Below are positions 43,210 through 61,466 of a stretch of DNA of 64,000 nt, piece by piece (the first letter of the stretch is position 1; every line of letters starts with the position of its first letter). A model generated the notes under the pieces. The model saw only the letters and a program-made list of their open reading frames with translations, had not been told where the DNA came from and searched no databases. A program made the translations under genes and the position numbers. The stretch is taken from NCBI GenBank assembly GCA_002890675.1, contig PEFW01000001.1, positions 39,610 to 103,609 on the forward strand, in the 5' to 3' direction. Source of the stretch: Candidatus Methylaffinis lahnbergensis (GTDB lineage: Bacteria; Pseudomonadota; Alphaproteobacteria; Rhizobiales; Beijerinckiaceae).

Positions 43210-43265
43210 ATACGATAGAAACGGCGATTGTAGCGAAACACGAATTCATTGAGATCGGTGCCGAG
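43210..43265 (-). mobile_element. IS1595-family transposase C-terminal scrap
   Basis: DLNEFVFRYNRRFY, the family's terminal (Y)LxEFxFR(Y/F)NRR motif. Confidence 0.6.
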
Positions 43266-43404
43266 GTTCCATCTTGCCAAACAGGCCAAAACGAGCGAAT
43301 GCTACAAGCTCCCAGCGATCTGGCGAATGCCAGCTCCGGGTTCGGGTCTGGGCAAGCTTCGCGGATCGTTTTTCAACCGCTTTGCCTCGGTTGGGCCTAA
43401 ATCG

Positions 43405-45114
43405 ATGGAATCCCGGTACGCACTATTTGCCTTGTATGCGCTCGGCGCGGCTGTGCTGGCGGCGTCTCTCGCGAAATTGAAGGCGAAGCTGGAGTTGACG
43501 AAGGCGACGCAGTGGTCGCTGGCAGGGAACGTCTGGATCGCGCGACGGATAGCGTCGCTTATCCCGTTCTACGATTATGATGAAGAGCAGTTCTTCCGCA
43601 CGGACAGTCCGCCGGACGAGATCGCCGCGCGCCGCCGCGCCGGATTCATGCGCCTCTCCAATCTCTGCCGTGAACAATTCGCAAAGACGGACCAGTTCAC
43701 GGCCGAGGTCAAGGACAGCATTTCCGACCTTCAATTCACCGAAGCCTATCGGGCGCCGTTCCAATTCCGCCGCTTGGTCCGCGAATACCTCGACGCCGGC
43801 GCGGTCGTCCTGTCGTCGTCCGGAGTGACTCTCACCGATCTGGACGGCAATTGCTTCTACGATCTGACCGGCTCCTACGGCGTCAACGTCTTCGGCAATG
43901 ATTTCTACAAGGAGTGCATAGAACGGGGCTGTCAACGCGTGCGCGAACTCGGCCCGGTCCTCGGCAGCTATCATCCGGCGATCGCCTACAACGTCAAACG
44001 TCTCAAAGAGATTTCCGGACAGGATGAAGTGTCGTTTCACATGTCCGGAACGGAGGCGGTCATGCAGGCGGTGCGGCTCGCGCGCTACCACACCCGCCGG
44101 TCTCATCTGGTGCGGTTCTGCGGCGCCTATCACGGATGGTGGGGCGACGTCCAACCGGGCGTCGGCAACCCCGTGCCGGCGCATGAAACCTATACTTTGA
44201 AAGAGATGTCCCGCGACACGTTGCGCGTGCTGCGCAGTCGCCGCGACATTGCGTGCGTCCTTGTCAATCCGTTGCAGGCGCTCCATCCGAATGCGGCCGC
44301 GCCTTCGGATTCCTCGCTGGTCGATGGCGCCCGAAGCTCCCACTTCGACAAAGAAGCGTATCGTGTTTGGCTGCAGCGCCTGCGCGCGGTCTGCACAGAG
44401 CGCAAGATAGTGCTGATTTTCGACGAGGTCTTCAGCGGCTTCCGCCTCGCGCTCGGCGGGGCGCAAGAATATTTCGGCGTTCGAGCCGACATTGTCACGT
44501 ACGGGAAGACTCTCGCGGGCGGCCTCCCGATAGGAGTGGTCTGCGGCCGCAGGGACCTGATGAAGCGCTACCGCGACGATCGCCCGGTGGATGTCTGCTT
44601 TGCCCGCGGGACTTTCAACTCCCATCCCTATGTCATGGGGACTATGCACGAGTTCTTGGAGCGGATCGATAGCCCGAAAATCCGTGAGTTGTACCTTAAT
44701 GTGGATCCGGTGTGGAATGGCCGGGCGGACCGGTTCAACCAGCGCATGCACGACGAGGGCCTACCCGTGCAGATAGCTAATATTTCGTCTATTTGGAGTG
44801 TCTTTTTCACGCAGCCGTCGCGATACAACTGGATGTTTCAATACTACCTGCGCGCCGAAGGATTGGCGCTGAGTTGGACTGGAACGGGGCGCGTCATCTT
44901 CAGTTTGAATTACACGGATGCCGACTTCGAAGCAGTCACGAATCGCTACATGGCCGCTGGCAAGGCAATGCAGCAGGACGGTTGGTGGTGGTCCGATCCC
45001 TTGGCGACCAACAAATCAATCAAGCGCCATATACAGCGCGAGATGATCGCCCACCGTTTCATAAGGAATCTTCATCGCTCCGGCGACCGGTCGATGCCAG
45101 AGTCGCAATCCTAG
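43405..45114 (+). CDS. Class III PLP aminotransferase (GSA-aminomutase-like) with an N-terminal hydrophobic extension
   Basis: FYDLTGSYGVN, SFHMSGTEAVMQAVRLAR, YHGWW, LIFDEVFSGFR, IVTYGKTLAGGLP (PLP Lys), GTFNSHP; 569 aa. Confidence 0.88.
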   Translation: MESRYALFALYALGAAVLAASLAKLKAKLELTKATQWSLAGNVWIARRIASLIPFYDYDEEQFFRTDSPPDEIAARRRAGFMRLSNLCREQFAKTDQFTAEVKDSISDLQFTEAYRAPFQFRRLVREYLDAGAVVLSSSGVTLTDLDGNCFYDLTGSYGVNVFGNDFYKECIERGCQRVRELGPVLGSYHPAIAYNVKRLKEISGQDEVSFHMSGTEAVMQAVRLARYHTRRSHLVRFCGAYHGWWGDVQPGVGNPVPAHETYTLKEMSRDTLRVLRSRRDIACVLVNPLQALHPNAAAPSDSSLVDGARSSHFDKEAYRVWLQRLRAVCTERKIVLIFDEVFSGFRLALGGAQEYFGVRADIVTYGKTLAGGLPIGVVCGRRDLMKRYRDDRPVDVCFARGTFNSHPYVMGTMHEFLERIDSPKIRELYLNVDPVWNGRADRFNQRMHDEGLPVQIANISSIWSVFFTQPSRYNWMFQYYLRAEGLALSWTGTGRVIFSLNYTDADFEAVTNRYMAAGKAMQQDGWWWSDPLATNKSIKRHIQREMIAHRFIRNLHRSGDRSMPESQS

Positions 45115-45129
45115 CCGCATAAATGCCGT

Positions 45130-47760
45130 TCAGGTGTCATGGAGTCGATGCCTGTCGGAAGACTGGAGCATGTTCGTCAAAGCCCGCGAGGTTCCGCTCC
45201 GGACTATGTGGTCGCGCTCCGCATCCACTTGGTCGAGCAAAGACCGCAGATGTTCGGCGGTCCGGTCAGCCCCCTCGCCTTGGAACAGATCCACGTGCCA
45301 GCCGGGGACCCGGTGAACGAAAAACCTGCCCTTGACGAGATCGGACCAGCCCATCTTCGGGTCGGCAAAACGGGTCACGACATGGTCGCTTTGCAACACC
45401 ACCACGTTGCCAACCGATGCCGATGCCTGGTAGCGGAAGCACGCTTCTTCGAGATTGGACAGGAACCACTGGTTGGCCCAGTCATCAATGACCAGCTTCG
45501 CCTGGTTGAGCTTTGCCCGGCTGATGAGGTACAGTGCGGCGGCCAAGTCCATAATCCTGCTCTGGCGCACCAGTTTGTAGGATACAAGAAACTCCACCAG
45601 CGTCTGCTTACCGCTTAAAAGGAGTCCGCATTTATGCTCAAGTGAGTGCAACCGGTTGGACCAGCGGAACAGATAACGCCGGACGAACGGAAGGCGGCGC
45701 TTGCTATAGCCTGGCAGCCAGCTGTCGGCCATCACGACCAGTGGAACCGACTCTCCGGCCTGTCTCAATTGCTGCGCCGCTACATAGGCGATGACTCCCG
45801 CTACACAAAATCCAAATAGGATATAGGGACCGTGCGGCCGCGCCTCGCGGATAAGGCGCACATAATCGGCCGCGATCTCCTCCATGTCGCGGCGGGGCAA
45901 TTCACGAGGATTGCTCGGATCAAACAGCTGAACGCCAAGAAACGGCCGATCCGTTCCAATCCTTCGCGCGAGATTATAATAGATCATCGTATTGTTGATG
46001 GAGATAATTGGCGTCTTGTCGCCGCGCGGTTGAATCTCGACAATGCTCCATGGTTCCAGCGGCGTTTCGATCCTGAACACATGGGCTGTGAACTCTCGCA
46101 CGGTCGGCGCCTGAAAAAGGGTCATGACATTGATTTTGACGCCAAAGGTGCTCGCGACCTTGGTCATGAGCCGCATGGCCATCAAAGAATGCCCGCCGAG
46201 CTCGAAGAAATTCGACGTGAGGTCAATTTCCGGTACTTGAAGGACATCCCGCCAGATCGCCATCATCCTTGTTTCGGCATCGGCCGGCTTTGCGCGAGAC
46301 AATGGACTTGGCGCCGGGGGAGAGAACATGTTTGCAGCCAAATCGCCGCCAGTTTGGCACGGCTCACTCCTATCTCGAACAGGCTGCGCAAAGGTGGACA
46401 ATCTTGCCTTGGGATTGAAAATGGCGAGCTCGAAACATGTCATCAGGAATTCGAGCATGCCTTCGACCGTTGTTCTTTCGTAGAGGCCGGTGTTGAATTC
46501 CACCGCCAGCCGCCAGCCGCTTGGCCAATGGACCAAGAAGAAATTGAGATCGTAGAGCGAGCCAGCGGACAGCGAAGGTTGTCCCGTGAGTTCGAAGCCG
46601 CCGTAACTTCTGTGTTCCATGACATCGCGCAACACATTGAAATCGATACAGATCAGCGGCGTGCGTTTGGGATCGCGCGGGGGATTGAGAAGTTCGACCA
46701 ATCTGTGGAACGGCATGTGGGGGTGGATCAATGCCTCTTGAATTGTTCCGTTCACCCGGGCCAGGAATTCCTCGAAGGTTGGGTCTTTCGACGCATCGAA
46801 CCTCAGCACCAGATTATTGAGAAAGACACCGATCATGTTCTCAAGATCCGGATCGTCGCGTCCGGCGATCTGGGTCCCGAATATGACGTCCGTGCGGCCG
46901 CTGTAGCGGTGCAGCATCGCCGCAGTCACGGCGCAGCCAAAACTGAACAATGTAAGATTGTGCTTGCGCGCGGCTTCTTCCAATTTGTCGCCGAGCGCCA
47001 ACGGCATCATGACCGCGAGAATCTCTCCGCCGTGGTTTGGTTGAGAGGGGCGCTCACGATCTGGACAAATTTCGAAATATGGCGCTCCCGCCAGCTTGTT
47101 TTTCCAATAAGCGGTCTCCGCCTCAAAGCTGCTGCTGGCGAAATATTCCTTCTGCCAGAGGCAATAGTCGCCATATTGCAGCGGCGGCTCCGGAAGATCG
47201 TGAGGTCGCTTGGCGTCGAGCGCCGCGGCGATTGTGCCAAACTCATGGGCGAGATTACGAATCGACCAGCCATCGAAGACAATCTGATGGACAGTCACGA
47301 GCAAGACCCCATGATCGGCGGACAGGCGCAGCAAGGTCGCCCGGATCAGCGGCAATTGTCCAATGTCGAACGGCACGTGCGCCTCGCGGCGGCCCAACGC
47401 AATGGCTTCATCGGGCCGCTTTTCCTCGGGAATGACGGTCAAATCGACAACGGACAAATGGAAATCGAGGTGGCTGGCTACCTCCTGCATGGGTTCGCCG
47501 TCCTTATCGATGAACCTCGTGCGCAGGATCTCGTGACGGTCGACGATCGTCTGAAAGGCTTGTTCGATCGTCGAAGCGTCGAATCTCCCCTTGAGCTCCC
47601 AACGCAGGGCGATGTTGAGAACCGAACCTCCGGGGTTTAGCGCATGGATGAACCAGCATCGCTGCTGCGACGACGACAAGGGAAATAACAGTTCTTCACG
47701 CGGCTTCGTCTCCGAACCAGGCAAGCTAGGAACGCCCTCCATAATCATCTCGATTGTCAT
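45130..47760 (-). CDS. NRPS terminal protein: non-canonical C - T - Cys-type TE, no A domain
   Basis: C motifs LSSSQQRCW, RHEILRT, VHQIVFDG; T motif FFELGGHSL; TE motifs PYILFGFCVAG, VMADSW, VPGWH. Confidence 0.9.
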   Translation of the reverse strand: MTIEMIMEGVPSLPGSETKPREELLFPLSSSQQRCWFIHALNPGGSVLNIALRWELKGRFDASTIEQAFQTIVDRHEILRTRFIDKDGEPMQEVASHLDFHLSVVDLTVIPEEKRPDEAIALGRREAHVPFDIGQLPLIRATLLRLSADHGVLLVTVHQIVFDGWSIRNLAHEFGTIAAALDAKRPHDLPEPPLQYGDYCLWQKEYFASSSFEAETAYWKNKLAGAPYFEICPDRERPSQPNHGGEILAVMMPLALGDKLEEAARKHNLTLFSFGCAVTAAMLHRYSGRTDVIFGTQIAGRDDPDLENMIGVFLNNLVLRFDASKDPTFEEFLARVNGTIQEALIHPHMPFHRLVELLNPPRDPKRTPLICIDFNVLRDVMEHRSYGGFELTGQPSLSAGSLYDLNFFLVHWPSGWRLAVEFNTGLYERTTVEGMLEFLMTCFELAIFNPKARLSTFAQPVRDRSEPCQTGGDLAANMFSPPAPSPLSRAKPADAETRMMAIWRDVLQVPEIDLTSNFFELGGHSLMAMRLMTKVASTFGVKINVMTLFQAPTVREFTAHVFRIETPLEPWSIVEIQPRGDKTPIISINNTMIYYNLARRIGTDRPFLGVQLFDPSNPRELPRRDMEEIAADYVRLIREARPHGPYILFGFCVAGVIAYVAAQQLRQAGESVPLVVMADSWLPGYSKRRLPFVRRYLFRWSNRLHSLEHKCGLLLSGKQTLVEFLVSYKLVRQSRIMDLAAALYLISRAKLNQAKLVIDDWANQWFLSNLEEACFRYQASASVGNVVVLQSDHVVTRFADPKMGWSDLVKGRFFVHRVPGWHVDLFQGEGADRTAEHLRSLLDQVDAERDHIVRSGTSRALTNMLQSSDRHRLHDT

Positions 47761-50700
47761 CTCGATGCACCCGAGCGGCGCCTGAAACTTTGCAATGAAG
47801 GCGCCGTATTGACTGGCGCGAGCATCGATTCCTCCGGCAGGTCATTCGCGGCCCGCGCCAATTCGGCGATAGTCGGATGCCGCATCAGCTGGGCCGCACC
47901 GAGGTCGAGGCCCTGTTCCCGCATCCGCGCCGCGATGCGGAACAGGTCGATGGAATCCGCCCCTAGCGCGAAAAAATTATCGTGTATGCCAATCTCGCTA
48001 GTTCGCAGAACTTCGCCCCAAATCGCGGCGAGCTTGGCTTCGAGGGGTGTCTGGGGTGGCGCAATGACTCGCTCCGGTAACGCCTGTGCGGGATCGGGTC
48101 GCGGCAGCGCCTTGCGGTCGATCTTGCCGTTCTGTGTACGGGGTAGCGCGTCGAGACGCAAGATCTGCGCTGGGACCATGTAATCCGGCAATTCCTCGCG
48201 CAATTTCGTTCGCAGCCCGCCCACGCTCTCGATGGTGCCATCGGGCGCCGCGATATAGCCGACTAGATCGTCGCCGTGCAAACCGGCGGCCGTTTCCGGG
48301 CGGCCGGAAACGCGCCGCAGCGCATCTTCGACATCGCCAAGTTCAATGCGAAAACCGCGCAACTTGATTTGGCTATCGGCGCGTCCGAGCAGTTCGAAGC
48401 GCCCGTTCGCTAGATAGCGTGCGCGATCGCCAGTGCGATAGAGGCGCCCGTTCGTGCCGCTGGAAAACGGATTTTCCGTGAAGCTTTGCTTGGTGAGCGC
48501 TTGATTTTTATGATATCCTCGCGCTAGTCCCGCGCCGGCGATGCAAAGCTCTCCAGCGGCCCCGATTGCCGCCGTATTTCCCGCCGCGTCAAGGATATAC
48601 ATCCTTGTGTTCGCGATCGGACGGCCGAAATCGATAGCGCCGCCGTTTTGCCGTTCCGCCAGCGACCAGATCGTCGTTTCGGTCGGTCCGTACATGTTCC
48701 ACAGTTCGCCCGATCCGAGATCCTGGGCGAGTTTCCGGTCGAGCGTCTCGCCGCCGCACAGGATTTTGAGCCCCTTCGGATTGAGCCCCGCTTCCAGCAA
48801 TAGCCGCCATAGGGCCGGGGTGGCCTGCATCATCGTCGTCCCTGTGCGGATGATCAGCGCGGCGAGGGAAAACGGGTCCATGACATCGGCCCGGCTCGCG
48901 ATCGCGAGCTCGGCGCCGGCCGTCAGCGGCAGGAAGATTTCAAGAGCGGCAATGTCGAAGCATGGCGTCGTTACGGCGAGGAAGACATCGGCGGCGCCAA
49001 TGCCGGGCGACTGCCGCATCGCGGTCAGGAGGTTCACGACCGGGCGATGCTCGATATCGATGCCCTTTGGCCGGCCCGTCGAACCGGAGGTGAAGATGCG
49101 ATAAGCGAGATCTTCCTGGCGGACGCGCGGAAGAGGCGGCAGTTGTTCTTCGCCCAAGTCCGCGCTGGTTTCTCCAATGCCGATGCAAACCGGGATTGCC
49201 GCCTTGATGCCGTCCTCGAGCGTTGCCGACGTCAAAGCGATCCTAACATCGGCCTCGGAGACGATCGCGTGGATGCGCGCGGGCGGATAGATCGGATCGA
49301 GCGGAACATAGGCGCCGCCCGCCTTGAGGACGGCGAGCATGGCGACAACCAGCTCCGCCGAGCGGTCGAGATAAATCGCGACCGGCGTTTCGCGGGCGAC
49401 CCCGGCGGAAAGCAAGCGCCACGCCACACGATCCGCGCGCATGATAAGTTCGCGATAGGTGAGGGTAGTGTCTTCGAAGCGGACCGCGACGGCGTCTGGA
49501 GTAGCCGCCGCCTGCAAATCGATCAACTCGTGAATGGCGAATTCCGGGATGGGATAATCCGGCCCCGCAAGAGCGGAGCGCAGCGTGTTCTCCTCCGCCC
49601 GCGTCAGCATAGGCAGCCGCAAGGCCTCCCTGTCCATGTCGCCGGCGACGGCTTCGAGCAGCGTCCGGTAATGGCCGATCCAACGCGCGATGGTCGAGCT
49701 GTCGAACAGATCTGTGCTGTAATCGCAATCAATGATAAGGCCGCTGTCTTCCGCGACGACATTGAAGAACAAATCGAAATTCACAAAACGCTTGGGATTG
49801 GCGTCGGTCGAGACGGCGAGATCCTGGAAGGGAAGATTTTGCCCGATCCGCTCCAAATTGAACTGCGCTTCGATCAAGGGGAGCCGGTTGATCTCCCGCG
49901 GAATGTCGAGCGCCCGGACGAGGGACCCGAAAGTGTAGCTTTGATGATCGGCCGCATCGAGAAGAAGCTGCTGGGTCTTGCGCGCGGCTTCGAGGAAAGT
50001 GACGCCGTTTGGGAACTCGCCTCGCAACGGCAGGAAGTTGACGCAATGGCCAACAAGAGGCCCTTCGCCGTGCAAACTCTGCCCCGCGGTCGGAATGCCG
50101 GCGACGACGCCGGTTTGTCCGCTCAAGCGGGCAAGCAGCAATTGATAGGCGGTCAACAGCACGGCAAACAAGGTACAGCCATTGCGTGCGGCCGCTTGCT
50201 TCACGCGTTCGTACAGGGAAGCGTCGATTGTCCCGCGCAGCGTATCCCCGCGAAAGCTCTTAAGCGCCGGGCGCGGACGATCGAGCGGCAGGGCCAAGGG
50301 CTCCGGCGGTTGCGCGAATTGTTGCAGCCAATAGGCCTCCGCCTCCGGCTGCACCGCGCCGTGCCGTGCTGCATAGTCGACGAAGCTGTGGGCTTGCGGC
50401 AGGCTTGCGGCGGCTCCGCTCCGGCGGGCCGAATAGAGCGCCCCAAGTTCTTCCAAAAGGATGTTCATCGACCAGCCATCGCAGACGATGTGATGGGCGG
50501 TCAAGATCAGCATATGGCGGTCTTGACCATGGTCCGGCACCAAGGTGAAGCGAATGAGCGGTCCATTGACCAAATCGAAGGGAGTCGAGGCCTCGTTTTC
50601 GATGACATCGGCAAGATGGGTATCAGGAGGCTCCCCCTCGCCGCGCGCGATGGTGAAGGCTAGCGGTGCCGCGGGCATCACGGTAAAGCCATCGCCTACC

Positions 50701-53700
50701 GGCGCGAATCGGATGCGAAGCGCTTCGTGGCGCTGCACCAAATCGCGCGCCGCTTTCCGCAGCGCGTGGGTGTCGAGTTTGCCACGCAAATCGAGAGTAA
50801 CCGATTCGTTGAAGGCGCACGAAGCGGCGTCACCGAGTTGGGCGCTGAGCCAAATTTCCATTTGGCTTTCGGTCAACTGGCCTTGGCGCGCTCCGGCTGA
50901 ATCCGCCGTCCGTCCGAACAAGCCCGCGGCCATCATCTGTGCCGAGGCCGCATCGAAAACCGCGACGATTTTCGCGAGATCGGCATCGTCGTGGGCGGTC
51001 GTCAGGAAACACGGGAAGCCTTCCCGGATATGAATGCCCTGTTCGCGCATCAGGTAATAAAAGAGCGATGCGAAATGATATTCGGCGGGGAATTTGACGA
51101 AGAAGATCGAGCCGAAATGATGAATTTCGGCCGGCATGCCGTGGCGCTCGAAGACGGCGTCAAGGTCGTCCACGAGACGTCCGGTACGCTCGGACAAATT
51201 TTCCAGCAGGCTTGGCCCGGCTGCTTTTAGATGCTTCAAAACCGCGGCGGTGGCGGCGAGGGTCAGCGGGTGGCGCACGAACGTGCCGGCGAAGAAGGTC
51301 ACTCCAACGGTCGGATAGGAATCGTCGCCATATTGCCACATGCCGCCGTCGAGAGCGTCCATGAACGCGGCCTTGCCGGCCAAGATGCCGATGGGCATGC
51401 CGCCGCCGGCCACCTTGCCGTAGGTGACAAGATCGGCGCGGATGCCGAACAAGGCTTGTACGCCGCCAGGATGGACGCGGAAGCCAGTAACGATTTCGTC
51501 AAAGATTAAGGCGGTCCCCGCCTTCGCGGTCAGGTCGCGCAACGCCTCCAAGAATTGCCGGGGACGGAAGCCCGGCCGCCGGCTCTGCACGGGTTCGACG
51601 AGGACCGCCGCCAATTCATGGACGTGCTGTTCGAGCCAGGCGAGGCTCTCGGGAGTTGCATAGTCCAGGACGGTGATGTTGGCGATGGATTCGGCCGGAA
51701 TACCCGGAGCGATTGGAAATACCCGCGCAACCCCCTCGCGAACGCCGCCGCGCGCCAAAACTTCGTCGAATTGGCCGTGGTAATCGCCGGCGAAATAGAC
51801 GATGCGGTTGCGTCCGGTCACCGTTCGCGCGATCCGCATCGCCGCCATCACTGCTTCTGATCCGGTGTTGCAAAAGGTCATCCGCTCATTGCCCGTGAGA
51901 TCGCAAAGGAGCTTCGCGACCTCGCCGGCGAGAGGTGTTTGCGGACCCAATTCAAAGCCCTGGTCGATTTGCGCGATGAGCGCTTCACGAACGAATTCGG
52001 GTGCGTGGCCGAAGGCAGTCTGACCAAAGCCGTTCAAGAGATCGATATAAATGTTGCCATCGACATCCCAAAGTTTCGAGCCTTCGGAGCGGACGGTGAC
52101 GATCGGGTAAACGATCTCCTTCCATTCTGGATCGAATCCCGAGGCGACCCGGGGATCGGCAAGGACCGCGCGCGATGCCTGGGTCATGTCCTTGGAACCG
52201 CGCGTGCGCGTTGTGTAGCGTTCGATCAGATCGGCGACGAAACGGCGTTGCCCCGCGTCGAGACCGCCATCGCGCGCTTGCGAGAATGGCTTGAAGGGGC
52301 CAAAGGCCTCGCCGGGTTTTTTCTCCAGAAGCGACTTTGCTTGAAGCGGCGCAGCTGCTTGCGGGGGTTGCCGGACGGCTGGGGCCGCGGCAGCGGCCGC
52401 GGTGACCAAAGGTGCCGCGCCGGCAATCTGCCGCAAGGTATCGAGCTGCCGGTTTATGAGGTCGCTCATGCTGGCGAGCTGCGCCGCCATGACTTGCTCG
52501 ATCCCTTGTCCCGGCAAGGATGCAGCCGCAAAACGGGGTGCGGGGCTTGCGGCTGAAGGAGGCAGAGTGGAACCGGCGTCCACCTGGCTTGTCGCGGCCA
52601 TGGCGGGCTCCGGCTCAAATTCCGTCGCCGTTTGGTTCAGATGCTCGGCCACCGCATCGACCGTTCCAAGTTCGCCCATCATCTGGCGGAAGCTGACGGC
52701 GACATTGAAGCGGGTCTTGATCGCTTGGCTTGCCTGCGTGAGGAACAATGAATCGAAGCCAAGTTCGAGGAAACTTGTCCCGCGCGGCGCGATCGCTACA
52801 TCGATGCCCGAAAGATTTTCGAGCAAAGCCGCCAGTTCGGCCCGGATCGCTGCTTGGCGGTCGGGCATCTCGGGTTGTTGCGCAATTTGGGCAGTGGGGG
52901 TCGGCTGCAATGTTTCGTTCGCCATGGCGGTAATGTGACTTCCTTCAAAAGAAATGACCGCAGCGGGGCTGGCGCTTGTGGAATCTATAAAATAGCGCTT
53001 GCGCTGGAGAGGATAAGTAGGGAGAACGACTCGCCGTCGCGGTGCACCCTCGTGCAACGCATGCCAAACTGGCGCTGCGCCAGCGGCCCACAAGCGCCCG
53101 AGCGTATCGAGAAAGACCGCGTCTGAGTCGCGTTCCTCGGACGCGTCGGGGAGCGACGCGCCGATCAGAGGCGCCCCGCGCATCGCGCCGTTTTGCCGGG
53201 CGAGGCTTGTGAGCGTCCGCCCTGGGCCGACCTCGATCAGGATTGGCGATAATTGTTCGGCGAGGCAGGCGAGTGCCGCGGCGTAGCGCACCGTCTCGCG
53301 GCAATGCCGCGCCCAATAAAGCGGGTCCGTCGCCTGACCGGCCGTTATCCACGTTCCCGACATGGTGGAGACGTAAGGAATGCTGGGGGGCTTGAGAGGA
53401 ATCCGCGCCAAGATCTCTGCTAGCGGTTCGATCACCGGATCGACCATCGCCGAATGAAATGCATGCGAGGTCCGCAACCGCCGCCAGCCGACGCCGCGGG
53501 CGGTTAGCTTCGCCTCGAAGGCGTCGATTGCTGGATGCGGCCCGGAAACAACGCAGACGGCACTGGCGTTGACCGCCGCGATCGAGAGATCGCCGGGCAG
53601 GCAGGCCTTAAGTTCGGGCTCCGCCAGCATGACCGCGAGCATCGCTCCTTCCGGCAGCTCCTGCATCATGGCGCCACGCGCGGCGACTACCTCCAAGGCA

Positions 53701-55637
53701 TCTTCGAGCCGCATCACGCCAGCGAGCGTCGCGGCGACGAATTCGCCGACGCTGTGGCCTAGCATGGCGGCGGGCTCAAACCCAAGACTTCGCCATAACG
53801 CCGCGACGGAGAAGTTGACGCTGAACAGAGCTGGTTGCGCGAGCGCGGTCGCCTGAAGTCGCGGCCCAACCTCCAGAGGCTCGCCGAAAAGGACCTTGCG
53901 CAGGTCGAGGCCAAGCATAGGTTCCAGAATCGAAGCACATTGGTCGATCGTGCGCGCGACAACCGGATAACGCTGGTAAAGGCCCTGACCCATGCCAGGA
54001 TATTGCGCGCCCTGGCCAGGAAACAGGAATGCAAGCTTTGGCGGGGACGCGGCCGCCGTCTCGGCTTTGCCGGAGCCGCCGAGCCTCTCGATCAAGCCGC
54101 GCCTGTCCTTGACGACAGCGGCGAACCGCCTGGCGAAACCGCGCCTCCCGGTTTGCAAGGTGAAGGCGATGTCGCCGATGCTCTGTTCCGCGTGCGCTTC
54201 GACATGTGCCGCGAGGCGGCCGCGGGCTTCCGCCAAGGCATTGTCGTCGCGGGCCGACAGGACAACGAGATGCGCGGCCTCGGCATCGGGGACGGCAGCG
54301 GCGGCGTCCGGGAGCGGCGCTTCCTCGACGATCAGATGGACATTGGTTCCGCCTACGCCCGCGGCATTGACGCCTGCAATGCGCGGTTTGGCGCCGCGCG
54401 GCCAAGGCCGCAACTCGGCATTGACGAAGAACGGGCTCTCCTCAAGGCCGAGTTTCGGGTTTGGGGTCTTGAAATGAAGCGTCGCAGGCAGGCATTCATG
54501 TTCGAGCGCAAGAATGGTTTTGATTAACGCGGCGGCGCCGGACGCGATATCGAGATGGCCGATGTTCGTTTTAACCGTGCCGATCGCGCAAAATCCCTTG
54601 CGATCGGTGGTCGCGCCAAACGCCTTGGCGAGGCCGGCGATTTCAATCGGATCGCCAAGCGGGGTCGCGGTGCCGTGGCACTCCACATAGGAAATGCAGT
54701 CGGCGCTGATATCCGCCACGGCATGGGCGAGGGCGATTGCCTTGGCCTGGCCATCGCTGCTCGGGGCCGTATAGCCGACTTTCCTGGCCCCGTCGTTGTT
54801 GACGGCGCCGCCCCGAATGACCGCGCGGATCGGGTCGCCGTCGGCCAAGGCGGCGTCGAGACGCTTCAACAGAACCACGCCGGCGCCGCTGCCGAAAACC
54901 GTCCCCGCCGCTTCGGCGTCGAAGGTGCGGCAATGACCATCCGGCGAAACCATGCCGCCTTCCTGATAGAGATAGCCGCGCTTCTGCGGGAAGGTGATCG
55001 ATACGCCACCCGCAAGCGCCATATCGGCGCGATAATCGAGAAGGCATTGGCACGCTTCCGCGACGGCAAGAAGCGAGGTCGAACACGCCGATTGCACGGT
55101 AAAGGCGGGACCCCGCAGATCGAGCTTGTAAGCGGTCCGCGTCGCGAGGAAATCCGCTCCATTGCCGACGAGCGTCGGAAATTCGCCGACTTGATAATTG
55201 CCGGTCATATTTTCGAGCCGCTGCCGGTCGTTCAGCAAATTGTAGAGAAGGTAGGTGTTGAAGCTGCTCCCGGCGTAGACCGCGATCTCCCCGGGAAAAA
55301 CAGCCGGGTCGTAACCGGCGCTTTCCAGAGCCTCCCAGGCGATTTCGAGAAAGACTCTTTGTTGTGGGTCGGTCAGCTCCGCCTCGCGCGGCAGGAAGTT
55401 GAAGAAGCCGGCGTCAAACAGCTCGACTCCCTCCAAAATCGATCTTGCGCGCACATAGCCAGGCTGGTTTTGCACCGAACGGCCGTAGGCGTCTTCCAGC
55501 TCTTCCGGAGGAAAATGGGTGATGGACTCCACGCCGCGCCGGAGATTGTCCCAAAATGCCTCGAGCGATGGCGCGCCGGGGAAGCGGCCGGCCATGCCGA
55601 TCACGGCTATCGCGGGAAGGGTATCTTGGGCGGACAT
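47757..55637 (-). CDS. Hybrid PKS-NRPS: KS-AT-ACP-AMT-C-A-T (2626 aa)
   Basis: KS QSACSTSL / HGTATPLGDPIE / NIGHL; AT GHSVGE and HAFHS; ACP LGFDSL; AMT FDEIVTGFR / TYGKVAGGG; C HHIVCDGWS; A FTSGSTGRPKG, YGPTE, YRTGD, NGKIDRK; T LGADSI. ATG55637 overlaps the upstream TGA. Confidence 0.95.
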   Translation of the reverse strand: MSAQDTLPAIAVIGMAGRFPGAPSLEAFWDNLRRGVESITHFPPEELEDAYGRSVQNQPGYVRARSILEGVELFDAGFFNFLPREAELTDPQQRVFLEIAWEALESAGYDPAVFPGEIAVYAGSSFNTYLLYNLLNDRQRLENMTGNYQVGEFPTLVGNGADFLATRTAYKLDLRGPAFTVQSACSTSLLAVAEACQCLLDYRADMALAGGVSITFPQKRGYLYQEGGMVSPDGHCRTFDAEAAGTVFGSGAGVVLLKRLDAALADGDPIRAVIRGGAVNNDGARKVGYTAPSSDGQAKAIALAHAVADISADCISYVECHGTATPLGDPIEIAGLAKAFGATTDRKGFCAIGTVKTNIGHLDIASGAAALIKTILALEHECLPATLHFKTPNPKLGLEESPFFVNAELRPWPRGAKPRIAGVNAAGVGGTNVHLIVEEAPLPDAAAAVPDAEAAHLVVLSARDDNALAEARGRLAAHVEAHAEQSIGDIAFTLQTGRRGFARRFAAVVKDRRGLIERLGGSGKAETAAASPPKLAFLFPGQGAQYPGMGQGLYQRYPVVARTIDQCASILEPMLGLDLRKVLFGEPLEVGPRLQATALAQPALFSVNFSVAALWRSLGFEPAAMLGHSVGEFVAATLAGVMRLEDALEVVAARGAMMQELPEGAMLAVMLAEPELKACLPGDLSIAAVNASAVCVVSGPHPAIDAFEAKLTARGVGWRRLRTSHAFHSAMVDPVIEPLAEILARIPLKPPSIPYVSTMSGTWITAGQATDPLYWARHCRETVRYAAALACLAEQLSPILIEVGPGRTLTSLARQNGAMRGAPLIGASLPDASEERDSDAVFLDTLGRLWAAGAAPVWHALHEGAPRRRVVLPTYPLQRKRYFIDSTSASPAAVISFEGSHITAMANETLQPTPTAQIAQQPEMPDRQAAIRAELAALLENLSGIDVAIAPRGTSFLELGFDSLFLTQASQAIKTRFNVAVSFRQMMGELGTVDAVAEHLNQTATEFEPEPAMAATSQVDAGSTLPPSAASPAPRFAAASLPGQGIEQVMAAQLASMSDLINRQLDTLRQIAGAAPLVTAAAAAAPAVRQPPQAAAPLQAKSLLEKKPGEAFGPFKPFSQARDGGLDAGQRRFVADLIERYTTRTRGSKDMTQASRAVLADPRVASGFDPEWKEIVYPIVTVRSEGSKLWDVDGNIYIDLLNGFGQTAFGHAPEFVREALIAQIDQGFELGPQTPLAGEVAKLLCDLTGNERMTFCNTGSEAVMAAMRIARTVTGRNRIVYFAGDYHGQFDEVLARGGVREGVARVFPIAPGIPAESIANITVLDYATPESLAWLEQHVHELAAVLVEPVQSRRPGFRPRQFLEALRDLTAKAGTALIFDEIVTGFRVHPGGVQALFGIRADLVTYGKVAGGGMPIGILAGKAAFMDALDGGMWQYGDDSYPTVGVTFFAGTFVRHPLTLAATAAVLKHLKAAGPSLLENLSERTGRLVDDLDAVFERHGMPAEIHHFGSIFFVKFPAEYHFASLFYYLMREQGIHIREGFPCFLTTAHDDADLAKIVAVFDAASAQMMAAGLFGRTADSAGARQGQLTESQMEIWLSAQLGDAASCAFNESVTLDLRGKLDTHALRKAARDLVQRHEALRIRFAPVGDGFTVMPAAPLAFTIARGEGEPPDTHLADVIENEASTPFDLVNGPLIRFTLVPDHGQDRHMLILTAHHIVCDGWSMNILLEELGALYSARRSGAAASLPQAHSFVDYAARHGAVQPEAEAYWLQQFAQPPEPLALPLDRPRPALKSFRGDTLRGTIDASLYERVKQAAARNGCTLFAVLLTAYQLLLARLSGQTGVVAGIPTAGQSLHGEGPLVGHCVNFLPLRGEFPNGVTFLEAARKTQQLLLDAADHQSYTFGSLVRALDIPREINRLPLIEAQFNLERIGQNLPFQDLAVSTDANPKRFVNFDLFFNVVAEDSGLIIDCDYSTDLFDSSTIARWIGHYRTLLEAVAGDMDREALRLPMLTRAEENTLRSALAGPDYPIPEFAIHELIDLQAAATPDAVAVRFEDTTLTYRELIMRADRVAWRLLSAGVARETPVAIYLDRSAELVVAMLAVLKAGGAYVPLDPIYPPARIHAIVSEADVRIALTSATLEDGIKAAIPVCIGIGETSADLGEEQLPPLPRVRQEDLAYRIFTSGSTGRPKGIDIEHRPVVNLLTAMRQSPGIGAADVFLAVTTPCFDIAALEIFLPLTAGAELAIASRADVMDPFSLAALIIRTGTTMMQATPALWRLLLEAGLNPKGLKILCGGETLDRKLAQDLGSGELWNMYGPTETTIWSLAERQNGGAIDFGRPIANTRMYILDAAGNTAAIGAAGELCIAGAGLARGYHKNQALTKQSFTENPFSSGTNGRLYRTGDRARYLANGRFELLGRADSQIKLRGFRIELGDVEDALRRVSGRPETAAGLHGDDLVGYIAAPDGTIESVGGLRTKLREELPDYMVPAQILRLDALPRTQNGKIDRKALPRPDPAQALPERVIAPPQTPLEAKLAAIWGEVLRTSEIGIHDNFFALGADSIDLFRIAARMREQGLDLGAAQLMRHPTIAELARAANDLPEESMLAPVNTAPSLQSFRRRSGASR

Positions 55638-57523
55638 CAATTGCCTGTGGCTGGGTTTGGGTGGACGCTGGGCGAGCGGGCGCGGTTCACGCGCGCGCGC
55701 CGTTGGCGGGCCGCATTCGCCGCGACACCAGCGGTGGCGTCGCCCCTTTGCGCGCCCGATAGCCGGCCATGCAGAAGCCGGATCGTCGGCAGATCGAATA
55801 AATCCTGGATCGAAATCTGACCCGGGAAAAGCCGCTCGATGTCGGCATGCACGCCAAGGAGCTGGAGCGAGCCGCCGCCGAGGTCGAAAAAGTTTTGGTC
55901 GACATCGACGGTTTCCAGCTGAAGGTGACGGCGCCACAAATCGATCAGCATGGCCTCGACCGGGGTGGTGAACTGGGTGTTCGAAGGGTTTTGTGCCCGC
56001 GCATCCGCTGCCTGGCGACTGAGGGCGAGGCGGTCGATCTTACCCGTCGAGGTTAGCGGAAAAGCATCGACCGTCTCCAGCCGCGCCGGGATCATGTGCG
56101 GCGGCAAATAGCGGTTGGCGGCCTCACGCAAGGCGGCGCTGGAAAGGGAAGCGCCAGGGAGCGGAACAACGAAGGCGACCAGATGTTTGGCGCCATTCGT
56201 CAAGGCGCAAGCGACGACGGCAATGTCGGTGACCGGGAGGTGGCGCCGCAGCACGTTTTCGACATGCTCGGGCTCGATCCTGCGGCCGTTCACCTTGATC
56301 TGATTGTCCATCCGTCCGAGAAAATGCAGCAAGCCTGTCTCGTCGCGCCGGACGAGATCGCCGGTGCGATAGAGCCGTTGCGGAGGATCTTGCGCGTTAG
56401 GGTCCGCGATGAATTTTTGTTGCGTGAGATCGGGGGCGTTAAGATAACCGAGCGCCAGCCCCCCTCCCCCGACATAGAGCTGCCCCGCCAAGCCTTCGGG
56501 GACGGGGCGCATTTCGTCATCGAGAATCCGCAAAATCGTGCCCGCGATGGGCCGACCGATGGGGACCGCCGCATCGGCCGGCAAATCCGGCGGCGCGGTG
56601 AAGGTCGTGGTGAAGGTCGTGTTCTCGGTTGGCCCGTAAACCGAGATGAAATGACCCGATTTAAGGAGCTGCGCCGCCTTGGCGACATGCGCCGGAGACA
56701 TGACATCGCCGCCCGAGACTAGATAGCGAAGCTCGCGCAGAGGAGCGGGACGCTGGTCGATCATAAGGTTGAAGAGGCCGCTGGTTAGAAACAGGGTCGT
56801 TACGCCTTGTTCCTTGATCGCGGCGGCGATCGCGTCGAGGCTGAGCAAGCCTGCTTCTGGAATCACCAGCTCGGCGCCATTGAGCAGCGCGCCCCAAATT
56901 TCGAAAATCGATGCGTCGAACGTCAAGGGCGATGCTTGCAGGAAGATTTGATCGTCCGAAAACCGCATATAGCCGGGATTTTTGACCAGCCGGACAATGG
57001 CGCGATGCGGGATAACGACGCCTTTCGGCTCCCCCGTGGAGCCGGAGGTGAACATGACGCAGGCGGGGTCCGAGCCCGCGACTTTCGCGGCCTCGCCGCG
57101 GCGGCCGGCGTGCCCCGCCAATGGCGCGGCGTCAACATCGATCACCGGCACCGCCCCGGTGAGTTGGGGAAAGCGCTTCAACGTTGCACCGTTCGATATG
57201 ACACACGACAATTTGTGCCGCTCTATGATATCGAGAATGCCTTGTGGCGGGCTGCTCGGGTCGAGCGGCACGAACGCCCCGCCTGCTTTCAAAACCGCCA
57301 GGAAGGATGTGATGGTGGATAAGGAGCGGTCGAGGAGGATGCCGGCGAGCGCGCCTTTTTCAATTTCAGCGGCGGTGAGCCGGTCGCGGAGGGCATCGGT
57401 CCGGGCGTCGAGGCCGGCGTAGGTCAACCGTTGCGTGCCACTCCTGAGGGCGAAAAACCCAGGTGTTTCCGTGGTCTGAATTTGAAACCATTGGGGCACG
57501 TTGTCGAAATCGTTTCGGAACAT
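55637..57523 (-). CDS. NRPS loading didomain A-T
   Basis: LTYAGLD, MFTSGSTGEPKGV, FDASIFE, YGPTENT, YRTGD, TGKIDR; T motif FFDLGGGSL. GAGG precedes ATG57523. Confidence 0.93.
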   Translation of the reverse strand: MFRNDFDNVPQWFQIQTTETPGFFALRSGTQRLTYAGLDARTDALRDRLTAAEIEKGALAGILLDRSLSTITSFLAVLKAGGAFVPLDPSSPPQGILDIIERHKLSCVISNGATLKRFPQLTGAVPVIDVDAAPLAGHAGRRGEAAKVAGSDPACVMFTSGSTGEPKGVVIPHRAIVRLVKNPGYMRFSDDQIFLQASPLTFDASIFEIWGALLNGAELVIPEAGLLSLDAIAAAIKEQGVTTLFLTSGLFNLMIDQRPAPLRELRYLVSGGDVMSPAHVAKAAQLLKSGHFISVYGPTENTTFTTTFTAPPDLPADAAVPIGRPIAGTILRILDDEMRPVPEGLAGQLYVGGGGLALGYLNAPDLTQQKFIADPNAQDPPQRLYRTGDLVRRDETGLLHFLGRMDNQIKVNGRRIEPEHVENVLRRHLPVTDIAVVACALTNGAKHLVAFVVPLPGASLSSAALREAANRYLPPHMIPARLETVDAFPLTSTGKIDRLALSRQAADARAQNPSNTQFTTPVEAMLIDLWRRHLQLETVDVDQNFFDLGGGSLQLLGVHADIERLFPGQISIQDLFDLPTIRLLHGRLSGAQRGDATAGVAANAARQRRARVNRARSPSVHPNPATGN

Positions 57524-59772: not shown

Positions 59773-59833
59773 GAGGTGCGGGGATTTTAGGCCGCCGCGC
59801 GCACGCCGCTATTTTGTCCGGCCGGGTGTTTTG

Positions 59834-61000: not shown

Positions 61001-61374
61001 TGACCACGCGCTACACCAAAAGCCATGAATATGTCCGCGTCGAAGCCGAGACGGGCGTCGTCGGGATCACCGATTATGCGCAAGCCCAATTGGGCGATGT
61101 TGTTTTTGTCGAACTCCCGCCGGCCGGCCAGAACGTGTCGAAGGGCGCCGGGGTCGCCACCGTCGAAAGCGTCAAGGCAGCAAGCGAAGTCAACGCGCCA
61201 GTGTCGGGCGAAGTCGTAGAGGTCAATAGCGCGCTTGCCGATTCGCCTGGCCTCGTCAACGAGGATCCTACCGGCAAGGGCTGGTTTCTCAAAATCAAGC
61301 TGAGCGATGCCGTCGAACTCGAAAGCCTGATGGACGAGGATACCTATCGCGAGTTTCTGAAGGCCGTTTCCTAG
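61000..61374 (+). CDS. gcvH: Glycine cleavage system H protein
   Basis: GITDYAQAQLGDVVFVELP, VESVKAASEV (lipoyl Lys); TGATG overlap with gcvT. Confidence 0.97.
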   Translation: MTTRYTKSHEYVRVEAETGVVGITDYAQAQLGDVVFVELPPAGQNVSKGAGVATVESVKAASEVNAPVSGEVVEVNSALADSPGLVNEDPTGKGWFLKIKLSDAVELESLMDEDTYREFLKAVS

Positions 61375-61466
61375 CGATGACAGTTTGAACTTGAATCGCG
61401 CGCGGTCCAACCGAAGTTCCTGCCTTATGCGGGCGCCGCGTCGCACCACGATCGAGAGAAGCAAAG

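What the first reader, a model, noticed from the sequence alone, without database searches (positions are those of the whole stretch)
45130..47760. Terminal NRPS protein with His->Gln C domain, no A domain and a Cys-nucleophile thioesterase
Seen: the C-domain motif is HQIVFDG rather than HHxxxDG, so the catalytic second His is replaced. It is followed directly by a T domain (GGHSL) and a TE whose elbow is GFCVAG (Cys instead of Ser), with plausible Asp (ADSW) and His (GWH). The upstream T ends in GADSI, a DSI-type motif that in known NRPSs tends to precede epimerisation-type rather than ordinary C domains. Inference: this protein does not do standard elongation. It may transfer the chain T-to-T, act as a modifying or scaffold C domain, or hand the product to an external acceptor such as an amine, lipid or polysaccharide by transacylation.
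Basis: partly seen in the sequence, partly recalled or inferred. Interest (0 to 1): 0.72.

Follow-up and report, generated by a model that had tools for sequence, protein, structure and literature searches.

The report
A-less NRPS end module, cysteine thioesterase
This gene encodes the intact last module of a small three-gene peptide-polyketide assembly line in a Methylocella-like bacterium; it has no amino-acid-loading domain, Gln in place of the usual catalytic His, and a cysteine release site, all conserved across a large unstudied alphaproteobacterial family, so its exact chemistry is unknown but testable.

Summary
The 876-aa protein (45130-47760, minus strand) is C-T-TE with HQIVFDG, GGHSL and GFCVAG, with Asp679 and His822 completing the TE triad. 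It is not decay. Among 120 homologues the elbow Cys and the carrier Ser are invariant. The second motif position is Q 84, E 19, H 16, R 1.

C* is as conserved as the KS and aminotransferase domains, and more than the line's canonical C domain. The Cys thioesterase is the already crystallised AB3403 type (Asp on beta5), not the ObiF/SulM ring-forming type.

Relatives of the terminal gene form a series: C-A(Gly)-T-TE, C-(A-subdomain relic)-T-TE, C-T-TE and C-TE. The second His is more often lost where no working A domain is present. That trend is suggestive but not significant after phylogenetic control.

My pick (0.4) is a trans-loaded termination module in which Gln stands in for His and Cys-TE releases the product. 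A non-elongating T-to-T hand-over (0.3) is the main rival.

The scan met this family before on other DNA (e1-3985192, e1-4244509). Interest is moderate.

The parts
45130..47760 (-). Terminal NRPS gene, C*-T3-TE, 876 aa. Its start ATG overlaps the stop of the upstream gene (ATGA).
46381..47703 (-). C* condensation-fold domain (aa 20-460). Core motifs C1-C7 are recognisable, and pLDDT is mostly above 85.
   Evidence: Pfam 287 bits; PDB TycC C6 E 4.6e-67; AF2 model; Foldseek
47269..47289 (-). C3 motif HQIVFDG (aa 158-164). Codon 159 is CAG (Gln) where canonical C domains have the second His.
46285..46380 (-). Short disordered C*-T3 linker (about aa 461-492), at the place where relatives carry an A-subdomain relic or a full A domain.
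   Evidence: pLDDT below 50 for 463-491; alignment of the insert
46066..46284 (-). T3 carrier domain (aa 493-565). The FFELGGHSL Ser525 codon is 46186-46188, and the Ser is invariant in 120 of 120 homologues.
45211..46053 (-). Thioesterase domain (aa 570-850) with triad Cys652 (45805-45807, TGT), Asp679 (45724-45726) and His822 (45295-45297).
47757..55637 (-). Upstream hybrid gene KS-AT-ACP-aminotransferase-C2(HHIVCDG)-A2(Gly code DILQLGMIWK)-T2(LGADSI). The true start is the ATG at 55637 (MSAQD...), not the long GTG ORF.
47778..47801 (-). Conserved C-terminal tail of the T2 protein (PSLQSFRR). It is a candidate docking peptide for the terminal protein.
   Evidence: Present in 12 of 14 related operons (divergent in L104) and absent from the one with a complete C-A-T-TE. 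The docking role is inferred.
55637..57523 (-). Stand-alone A1-T1 (628 aa), code DAFFVGVTFK (Ile/Val-like, alpha-amino acid). Its stop overlaps the next start (TGATG).

Best explanation
P0001 is the functional, conserved termination module of a three-gene assembly line: A1-T1, then KS-AT-ACP-AMT-C2-A2(Gly)-T2, then C*-T3-TE. The module has lost its own adenylation domain.

Proposed mechanism:
1. The (3,4-diaminoacyl)-Gly chain on T2 enters the donor side of C*.
2. T3 is aminoacylated in trans. A2 (Gly) is the most likely loader, because a related operon has a complete Gly module at this position. A1 is the less likely alternative.
3. C* makes one more peptide bond. Gln159 (Glu or His in relatives) positions the acceptor amine by hydrogen bonding instead of acting as a base.
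4. The chain is trans-thioesterified from T3 to Cys652 of an AB3403-type thioesterase.
5. The chain is released by hydrolysis or, plausibly, by attack of one of its own free amines (lactam formation).

Shown here: the domain set, the motifs, their conservation, the operon, the TE type and the loss of the A domain. Inferred: trans-loading, the role of Gln, and the mode of release.
For: - Domains and motifs are as described.
- T3 Ser is invariant in 120 of 120 homologues, the TE Cys in 118 of 118, and H158/D163/G164 are invariant.
- C* is 55-70% identical between genomes. KS is 60-65%, AMT 60-64%, the canonical C2 47-51% and A2 41-48%, so C* is under strong purifying selection.
- Position 159 takes only Q, E, H or R. 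Q is ancestral in the 116-row clade. About 7 of 9 observed changes are back to H, against 2/7 expected from codon neighbours (p 0.003). The site is constrained, not free.
- An active C domain with HQxxxDM is documented (streptothricin ORF18; review PMC11546977).
- Relatives carry an A-subdomain relic between C and T with the A10 Lys lost, so a complete module was the ancestor.
- The related operon L101 has C(HH)-A(DILQLGMIWK)-T-TE(GWCVGG) at this place.
- Gly is the commonest specificity in front of this TE type, about 19 of 50.
- A-less C-T-TE modules loaded in trans are established, for example SyrE module 9 with SyrB1 (PMC8949500).
- The AF2 model superposes on holo-AB3403, SrfA-C and ObiF1 with TMq 0.54-0.57, against 0.42-0.47 for C domains alone. 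This is compatible with T3 docked at the acceptor site.
- The genome holds no other C, T or TE of this kind, and only A1, A2 and an unrelated A-T-hexapeptide protein.
Against: - If T3 still received Gly, there is no obvious reason for His159 to be replaced. Cis-loaded Gly modules of the same TE family keep HH.
- Among 69 representatives, 15 of 16 with a working A domain have His, against 26 of 53 without one.
- C-TE relatives with no carrier domain exist in the same kind of operon (L102, L103, L104 and about 14 representative clusters). There the terminal protein cannot elongate.
- The full-length paralogues nearest to C* have an Ile/Val-like A code, not Gly, so the identity of the loader is uncertain.
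- No shuttle enzyme of the SyrC kind is encoded next to the operon.
- Nothing here was tested biochemically.
Confidence: 0.4

Rival explanations
1. Non-elongating hand-over module. After loss of the A domain, C* no longer condenses. It holds the T2 and T3 pantetheine arms head to head, so the chain moves from T2 to the free thiol of T3 by thioester exchange. The chain then moves to Cys652 and is released. All transfers are isoenergetic thioester steps. This would be the NRPS counterpart of a non-elongating KS0.
For: - Loss of the second His tracks absence or degeneracy of the A domain: 15 of 16 versus 26 of 53 keep His. Independent pairs go the same way 3.6 times against 0.1.
- Three HQ proteins that still have an A domain carry aberrant codes lacking Lys517.
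- The architectures C-a-T-TE, C-T-TE and C-TE recur within one clade pair. Repeated loss of the relic (at least 6 times) and of T (at least 2 times) is easier if the product does not change.
- The structural residues of the motif (H158, D163, G164) are invariant while the catalytic one is not.
- T3 Ser and the TE Cys are invariant, so the chain does pass through them.
Against: - I know of no characterised C domain that catalyses carrier-to-carrier transfer, and two searches of the held paper library found none.
- Every characterised A-less C-T module is loaded in trans.
- The phylogenetically controlled test is not significant (6 pairs, median p 0.125).
- Half of the A-less relatives keep HH.
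- The constraint to Q, H or E would need its own explanation.
Confidence: 0.3
2. C* is an amide synthase for a nucleophile that is not carrier-bound. That nucleophile could be a soluble amine or one of the chain's own amines (cyclising release), as with the HQ-type C domain of streptothricin ORF18. T3-TE would then serve another role, such as editing or a second release route.
For: - The only documented HQ-type C domain joins a carrier-bound acyl group to a free amine.
- The predicted chain carries two free amines, from the A1 code plus the aminotransferase domain.
- C-TE relatives that keep HH must use an acceptor that is not on a cis carrier.
Against: - The invariant T3 Ser and TE Cys would be unexplained if C* already released the product.
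- No gene for making a special amine is conserved next to the operon. The adjacent 621-aa aminotransferase is absent in M. tundrae.
Confidence: 0.12
3. C* is only a docking scaffold that recruits T2, through the conserved PSLxSFRR tail, to the TE. It performs no catalysis.
For: - In C-TE relatives the second position is free: H, A, P, S, N, Q.
- The T2 tail is conserved in 12 of 14 related operons (divergent in L104) and is missing from the only operon with a complete C-A-T-TE; all the operons that have it carry A-less terminal proteins.
Against: - In the clade of this protein the position is restricted to Q, E, H or R, unlike the C-TE clade.
- C* is the best conserved domain of the line.
- T3 would be superfluous, yet its Ser is invariant.
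Confidence: 0.1
4. A decaying, non-functional remnant of a termination module.
For: The A domain has been lost and a catalytic His replaced.
Against: - The frame is intact, with 439 homologues at E <= 1e-10.
- Carrier Ser, TE Cys and the structural C motifs are invariant.
- The gene is translationally coupled to the upstream gene.
- C* is conserved at 55-70% identity.
Confidence: 0.03

Closest known systems
AB3403 of Acinetobacter baumannii (C-A-T-TE termination module, PDB 4ZXH/4ZXI)
   Same: It is the best whole-model Foldseek hit (E 2e-44) and among the best TE profile hits (E 2e-24). Its TE elbow also carries Cys (GGWCFGG), with Asp 27 residues later on beta5 and the His near the C-terminus. 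Its product is likewise unknown. Its A domain binds glycine (PMC10510592), the commonest specificity in front of this TE type.
   Different: AB3403 has a complete A domain. It is fed by a free-standing adenylating enzyme and carrier protein, not by a PKS-NRPS. I did not inspect its C3 motif here. The protein here has no A domain and has HQ.
Syringomycin SyrE module 9 (C-T-TE) with SyrB1 (A-T) and SyrC
   Same: A terminal C-T-TE without an A domain, plus a stand-alone A-T protein encoded upstream. The last module is described as 'split' (PMC8949500).
   Different: Syringomycin needs the shuttle acyltransferase SyrC and a halogenase, and no such genes flank this operon. Here A1-T1 is read colinearly as the PKS starter. 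From general knowledge, the SyrE TE uses Ser and its C domain is canonical; I did not test this.
Yersiniabactin HMWP1 terminal module (Cy-MT-PCP-TE loaded in trans by the HMWP2 A domain)
   Same: An A-less termination module on a separate protein. Its carrier is charged by the A domain of the preceding protein with the same amino acid. This rests on established knowledge and was not tested here.
   Different: It has a cyclisation domain (DxxxxD) rather than a C domain, a Ser thioesterase and a Cys substrate.
Streptothricin ORF18 (C plus PCP, motif HQxxxDM)
   Same: A natural, active C domain with Gln at the second position in an A-less C/PCP protein. Mutating the Gln lowers activity (review PMC11546977).
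   Different: Its acceptor is a free aminosugar amine, it has no thioesterase, and its motif ends in DM rather than DG. No detectable close relationship was sought or found.
ObiF / SulM cysteine thioesterases (beta-lactone and beta-lactam forming)
   Same: A GxCxG nucleophile in an NRPS TE, with an acyl-thioester intermediate (PMC6668435, PMC11298585).
   Different: In those enzymes the Asp sits on beta6 ('position II'), and SulM has a Gln-Cys-Asn motif. Here the Asp is on beta5 at C+27 and the elbow is GFCVAG. The ObiF1 TE gave no sequence hit; only its C domain matched, at 3e-18.
Non-elongating KS0 domains of trans-AT polyketide synthases (functional analogy only)
   Same: A chain-extending domain that has lost a catalytic His yet is conserved and passes the chain on unchanged. 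This is what the hand-over reading proposes for C*.
   Different: The fold and chemistry differ, because KS0 uses a covalent Cys intermediate. The comparison rests on general knowledge, not on any test here.

Membership tests
NRPS condensation domain (PF00668) | C-domain fold and core motifs C1-C7 | tested here: met
   Pfam 287 bits over 26-456. PDB TycC C6 at 4.6e-67. Foldseek TMt 0.72-0.90 to C domains. Motifs read in the sequence: SSSQQRCW, RHEILRTRF, YGDYCLW, IGVFLNN, RDPKRTPL.
NRPS condensation domain (PF00668) | HHxxxDG with the second (catalytic) His | tested here: not met
   The motif is HQIVFDG. Position 159 is Q 84, E 19, H 16, R 1 in 120 homologues.
Epimerisation or dual E/C domain | Closer to E domains than to C domains, and preceded by a GGDSI-type carrier specific to that context | tested here: not met
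   E domains (TycA, GrsA) score only 1.8e-15 and 6.8e-12 (the GrsA hit lies on T3, not C*), against 1e-66 to 1e-67 for C domains. LGADS(I/L) in T2 is lineage-wide, including before a canonical HH C-A-T-TE.
AB3403-type cysteine thioesterase (type I TE) | GxCxG elbow, Asp on beta5 (nucleophile +27), C-terminal His, carrier domain directly upstream | tested here: met
   GFCVAG at 650, D679 at +27 and H822 align with AB3403 GGWCFGG / MIDT / PGDH. 132 of the 144 nearest representatives with the elbow aligned have Cys.
Beta-lactone/beta-lactam forming Cys thioesterases (ObiF, SulM) | Catalytic Asp on beta6 ('position II') | tested here: not met
   The Asp is at the beta5 position, whereas ObiF1 has Gly there and its Asp on beta6 (PMC6668435).
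Beta-lactone/beta-lactam forming Cys thioesterases (ObiF, SulM) | Gln-Cys-Asn elbow (SulM) and a beta-hydroxy or beta-amino alpha-amino acid activated by the last module | tested here: not met
   The elbow is F-C-V. There is no A domain in the module, and the upstream A2 code is Gly.
A-less termination module loaded in trans (SyrE-M9 / HMWP1 kind) | C(or Cy)-T-TE without an A domain, with an intact carrier Ser | tested here: met
A-less termination module loaded in trans (SyrE-M9 / HMWP1 kind) | An A domain elsewhere in the line that charges the orphan carrier | not testable with these tools
   Candidates A1 and A2 exist. The related operon L101 has a cis Gly A domain at this position. Charging itself needs biochemistry.
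A-less termination module loaded in trans (SyrE-M9 / HMWP1 kind) | Dedicated shuttle acyltransferase (SyrC/CmaE kind), needed only for the SyrE variant | tested here: not met
   No such gene flanks the operon here or in M. tundrae.
Glycopeptide X domain (P450-recruiting C-like domain) | Degenerate motif plus partner P450 genes in the cluster | tested here: not met
   There is fold similarity only (4tx2 TMt 0.84). No P450 is in the three-gene operon or its flanks.

The most novel reading that the evidence does not exclude
C* is a non-elongating 'C0' domain. It is a condensation-fold domain kept only to pass the finished chain from the carrier of one protein (T2) to the carrier of the release protein (T3) by thioester exchange. 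The invariant Cys of the thioesterase then keeps the chain at thioester energy, so one of the chain's own amines can close a lactam. The series C-A-T-TE, C-a-T-TE, C-T-TE, C-TE would be stepwise reductive evolution of a termination module that has stopped adding a residue.
Probability: 0.3. Interest if true: 0.8.

Novelty: new variant of a known kind. Interest (0 to 1): 0.5.

Why it matters
Each oddity has a precedent: A-less C-T-TE in syringomycin, a Cys thioesterase in AB3403, and HQ in streptothricin ORF18. Here all three are fixed together in a large alphaproteobacterial family whose product nobody has seen. The family spans Methylocella, Methylocapsa, Beijerinckia, Chelatococcus, Ancylobacter, Azorhizobium, Methylobacterium, and MAGs labelled Hyphomonadaceae and Caulobacterales.

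Natural variants cover every stage from a complete module to a bare C-TE. This gives a ready-made experiment on two open questions: what the second His of HHxxxDG is for, and whether a C domain can move a chain without extending it. The operon has only three genes and occurs in cultivable laboratory strains such as Methylocella silvestris BL2, so the question is directly testable. If the module is simply loaded in trans, the finding is an ordinary though uncharacterised member of a known class.

Tried and rejected
1. The search for related loci on genome contigs with the family alignment. The patterns were generic NRPS motifs, so only unrelated NRPSs at 30-38% identity came back. The scan was wasted. 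Related operons were instead taken from the genome search handles.
2. Foldseek of the whole model. The list is dominated by C domains and says little about the TE. The TE was placed by a profile search of PDB sequences instead.
3. Epimerisation or E/C reading from the GADSI carrier motif: rejected.
4. Beta-lactone or beta-lactam type Cys-TE: rejected on Asp position and elbow motif.
5. Decayed copy: rejected.
6. The adjacent 621-aa class III aminotransferase (43249-45114) and the aspartate-semialdehyde dehydrogenase as cluster members. They are not conserved next to the operon in M. tundrae, where a RuBisCO-like gene follows. The flanks here are housekeeping genes.
7. A third NRPS A domain elsewhere in the genome as loader of T3. 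The only other hit is an A-T-hexapeptide-repeat protein in an unrelated context.
8. Inferring the lost A domain's specificity from the nearest full-length paralogues (DAFFLGITFK, like A1). This is weakened because those paralogues are nested inside the A-less clade. Their A-subdomain is only 27-30% identical to most relics, though 47% to one relic. More distant full modules are mostly Gly.
9. The raw 2x2 association of His with a working A domain (p 3e-4 on a near-identical hand count). This overstates the case. With phylogenetically independent pairs only 6 contrasts exist and the sign test gives a median p of 0.125.
10. Literature searches for C-domain-mediated carrier-to-carrier transfer or non-elongating C domains found nothing.
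Full report
**What is there.** The minus-strand ORF 45130-47760 encodes an uninterrupted 876-aa protein. Pfam finds three domains and no adenylation domain: Condensation (26-456, 287 bits), PP-binding (500-561) and Thioesterase (592-685).
- The gene is the last of three translationally coupled genes.
- The first gene is A1-T1 (55637-57523), with specificity code DAFFVGVTFK. This is an Ile/Val-like alpha-amino acid code with Asp235 and Lys517 present.
- The second gene is KS-AT-ACP-aminotransferase-C2(HHIVCDG)-A2-T2 (47757-55637). A2 has the glycine code DILQLGMIWK.
- The third gene is C*-T3-TE.
- The stops and starts overlap as TGATG and ATGA. The long GTG-initiated ORF for the middle gene is therefore an artefact of ORF calling.
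- The flanks are housekeeping genes: the glycine cleavage system, aspartate-semialdehyde dehydrogenase, an H4MPT dehydrogenase and HtpG.
- The genome is a 3.7-Mb, 239-contig assembly of a Methylocella-like member of the Beijerinckiaceae. It holds no other C or TE of this kind. Its only other NRPS-type A domain is in an A-T-hexapeptide-repeat protein in an unrelated context.

**It is a family, not a damaged copy.**
- A protein search returned 439 homologues at E <= 1e-10. They come from Methylocella, Methylocapsa, Beijerinckia, Chelatococcus, Ancylobacter, Azorhizobium, Xanthobacteraceae, Methylobacterium, and MAGs labelled Hyphomonadaceae and Caulobacterales.
- In an alignment of the best 120, the elbow Cys is present in all 118 sequences that cover it and the carrier Ser in all 120. 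H158, F162, D163 and G164 are also present in all 120.
- Position 159 is Q 84, E 19, H 16, R 1.
- Domain-by-domain tblastn against eight related operons shows C* at 55-70% identity. That equals the KS (60-65%) and the aminotransferase (60-64%). It clearly exceeds the line's canonical C2 (47-51%), A2 (41-48%) and the TE (43-56%).
- A C-domain tree places Q at the base of the 116-row clade. H reappears in about six or seven separate places, E once and R once. Lys, Leu and Pro are never seen although each is one mutation from Gln.
- About 7 of 9 changes going to His, against 2/7 expected, gives p 0.003 (events counted by eye).
- The site is thus constrained to a polar, hydrogen-bonding residue of similar size, but His is not required.

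**How the architecture evolved.**
- Homologues fall into length classes. The roughly 850-aa class is C-T-TE like this one.
- The roughly 950-aa class carries about 100 extra residues between C and T. These are recognisably the C-terminal subdomain of an adenylation domain (A9- and A10-like motifs) with the catalytic A10 Lys replaced. This relic is conserved at 62% between two lineages, similar to the flanking domains.
- A few 1375-aa proteins are complete C-A-T-TE with HH. The one in M. silvestris BL2 stands alone in the genome, while the same strain also has the three-gene operon.
- M. tundrae has the same three-gene operon with different downstream genes, so the operon is the whole cluster.
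- Taking operons from other family members showed that the first two genes are conserved but the terminal gene varies.
- L101 has C(HH)-A(Gly code)-T-TE(GWCVGG), separated from the rest by a PPTase gene.
- Most operons have C-relic-T-TE.
- This window and Chelatococcus have C-T-TE. In Chelatococcus the terminal gene lies about 23 kb from the operon.
- L102, L103 and L104 have a C-TE protein of 749-800 aa with no carrier domain at all.
- A search of 1.84 billion representative proteins with the TE domain alone confirmed that all these architectures are common: about 14 C-TE, 30 C-T-TE and 19 C-A-T-TE representatives among the best 150.

**The thioesterase.**
- The triad is Cys652, Asp679 and His822, and the Asp lies 27 residues after the nucleophile.
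- A profile of the TE against PDB sequences finds AB3403 of A. baumannii (4ZXH) among the top hits. AB3403's elbow reads GGWCFGG, so it is also a Cys enzyme, with the Asp at +27.
- AB3403 is also the best Foldseek hit for the AlphaFold model (pLDDT 84).
- The two characterised ring-forming Cys thioesterases differ. ObiF1 has Gly at the beta5 position and its Asp on beta6. SulM has the Asp at 'position II' and a Gln-Cys-Asn elbow.
- Among the nearest 50%-identity cluster representatives, 132 of the 144 with the elbow aligned have Cys.
- The Cys nucleophile is therefore the hallmark of a large, partly crystallised but functionally uncharacterised TE clade, not a peculiarity of this gene.
- Glycine is the commonest specificity of the A domain in front of such TEs, about 19 of 50. 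AB3403 was crystallised with glycine.

**The condensation domain.**
- C* is an ordinary C-type fold. The best PDB sequence hits are TycC C6, PvdL, DhbF and Txo1/2 at 1e-63 to 1e-67. E domains score only about 1e-15.
T2 reads LGADS(I/L) in almost all related operons, including L101 where a canonical HH module follows.
- Across 69 representative proteins I scored the second His and the integrity of the A domain (present, with Asp235 and Lys517).
- 15 of 16 proteins with a working A domain have His, against 26 of 53 without one.
- The non-His residues are Q in the relic-bearing clade. In C-TE proteins they are free (A, P, S, N, Q), and D, Y or L occur in scattered C-T-TE proteins.
- Three HQ proteins that still have an A domain carry aberrant codes without Lys517.
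- The raw association looks strong (p about 3e-4 on a near-identical count), but relatives are not independent. Only six independent contrasts exist. His goes the expected way in 3.6, the other way in 0.1, and the sign test gives a median p of 0.125.
- I therefore treat this as a suggestive trend only.

**Mechanism.**
- The shown parts are the domains, the invariant Ser and Cys, the strong selection on C*, the ancestral loss of the A core, and the AB3403-type triad.
- The predicted chain arriving on T2 is a 3,4-diaminoacyl-Gly thioester. It arises from an amino-acid starter, one malonyl extension, transamination of the beta-keto group, then Gly. This is an inference from domain order and codes.
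- Two readings remain close.
- Reading (a): T3 is charged in trans and C* makes one more peptide bond. Q/E/H would position the acceptor amine rather than act as a base. A2 is the more likely loader, because L101 has a cis Gly module at this position. A1 is the alternative, because the nearest full-length paralogues have an A1-like code.
- Precedents for (a) are the trans-loaded SyrE module 9, HMWP1 (general knowledge) and the active HQ-type C domain of streptothricin ORF18.
- Reading (b): C* no longer elongates and only passes the chain from T2 to the T3 thiol. The trend between His loss and A loss, the C-TE forms and the repeated loss of relic and carrier favour this. No such activity has been described, and searches found none.
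- Given the strong prior from characterised systems, I rate (a) at 0.4 and (b) at 0.3.
- The remainder goes to amide formation with a non-carrier amine, a pure docking role, and decay.
- In either case the chain then moves isoenergetically to Cys652. With two free amines in the substrate, release by lactam formation is plausible but unproven.

**Comparison and novelty.**
- The protein works like an A-less termination module and carries an AB3403-type Cys thioesterase.
- It fails one defining feature of canonical C domains (the second His). It also fails the defining features of E domains, X domains and the ObiF/SulM thioesterases.
- The combination is conserved in a large unstudied family, so I file it as a new variant of a known kind.
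- The scan has flagged the same family before on other DNA (e1-3985192, an HQ form; e1-4244509, an HE form). It has also flagged the AB3403-type Cys thioesterase (e1-918761). Those notes agree with what I found independently.

**Limits.**
- Nothing is known about expression or product.
The ten marker residues checked out.
- The trees are quick searches with some long branches.
- The direction of change (loss versus regain of the A domain) is not resolved. The nested C-A-T-TE paralogues could reflect regain or gene conversion between paralogues.

Noticed in passing
window 47778-47801 (-), and T2 ends in L002, L093-L100, L102-L105: The T2-bearing protein ends in a conserved tail P-S/A-L-x-S/A-F-R/K-R. 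It is present in 12 of 14 related operons and divergent in L104, and every operon that has it carries an A-less terminal protein. It is missing in L101, the only operon with a complete C-A-T-TE. It is a candidate docking peptide for the terminal C domain.
   Followed up: partly
TE domains of homologues P0114, P0116, P0118, P0176, P0192, P0226, P0235, P0248, and L099/L100: Where the elbow reads C-V-H-G (His two residues after the Cys), the canonical triad His is missing and the Asp is often Asn or Ser. This holds for 5 of 5 in the 120-homologue set and 8 of 10 among representatives. It looks like relocation of the catalytic His.
   Followed up: partly
950-aa homologues, e.g. L002 11400-11780: The A-subdomain relic between C and T has lost the A10 Lys, yet it is as conserved (62%) as the flanking domains in some lineages. 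It has been deleted independently at least six times in others. Its role, if any, is unknown.
   Followed up: partly
L092 2470-4920 and L105 7607-17424 (Chelatococcus-like genome G146, contig C6): Here the C-T-TE gene lies about 23 kb from the rest of the operon and on the opposite strand, so linkage is not obligatory.
   Followed up: no
L095 4420-7554 (Beijerinckia indica-like genome G055): The first gene of the operon is C-A-T (1119 aa) instead of A-T, which suggests an N-acylated starter in that species.
   Followed up: no
homologues P0083 and P0091 (1386-1390 aa): These are C-C-T-TE variants. An extra N-terminal C-like domain with HSIICDG or HGMISDG precedes the HQ-type C domain.
   Followed up: no
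G000 contig C112 64063-68130 (L012 4064-8131, minus strand): A 1355-aa A-T protein with a hexapeptide-repeat (LbH) C-terminal part sits between lgt, a methyltransferase and fabI-like genes. It is the only other NRPS-type A domain in the genome.
   Followed up: partly
window 45130-45180 (-): The protein is 16 residues longer at its C-terminus than a 96%-identical homologue (...VRSGTSRALTNMLQSSDRHRLHDT versus ...VRSEASRA), probably through a changed stop.
   Followed up: partly
window 43249-45114 (+): A 621-aa protein with a HemL-like class III aminotransferase core and a long N-terminal extension converges on the TE gene. It is not next to the operon in M. tundrae, so it is probably not part of the cluster.
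   Followed up: partly
window 59831-64000 (+): Glycine cleavage genes (gcvT, gcvP subunits) lie just upstream of an operon that incorporates glycine. This is probably coincidence.
   Followed up: no
L101 14283-15077 (-): In the operon with the complete terminal module, an Sfp/EntD-type phosphopantetheinyl transferase gene is inserted between the PKS-NRPS gene and the C-A-T-TE gene.
   Followed up: no
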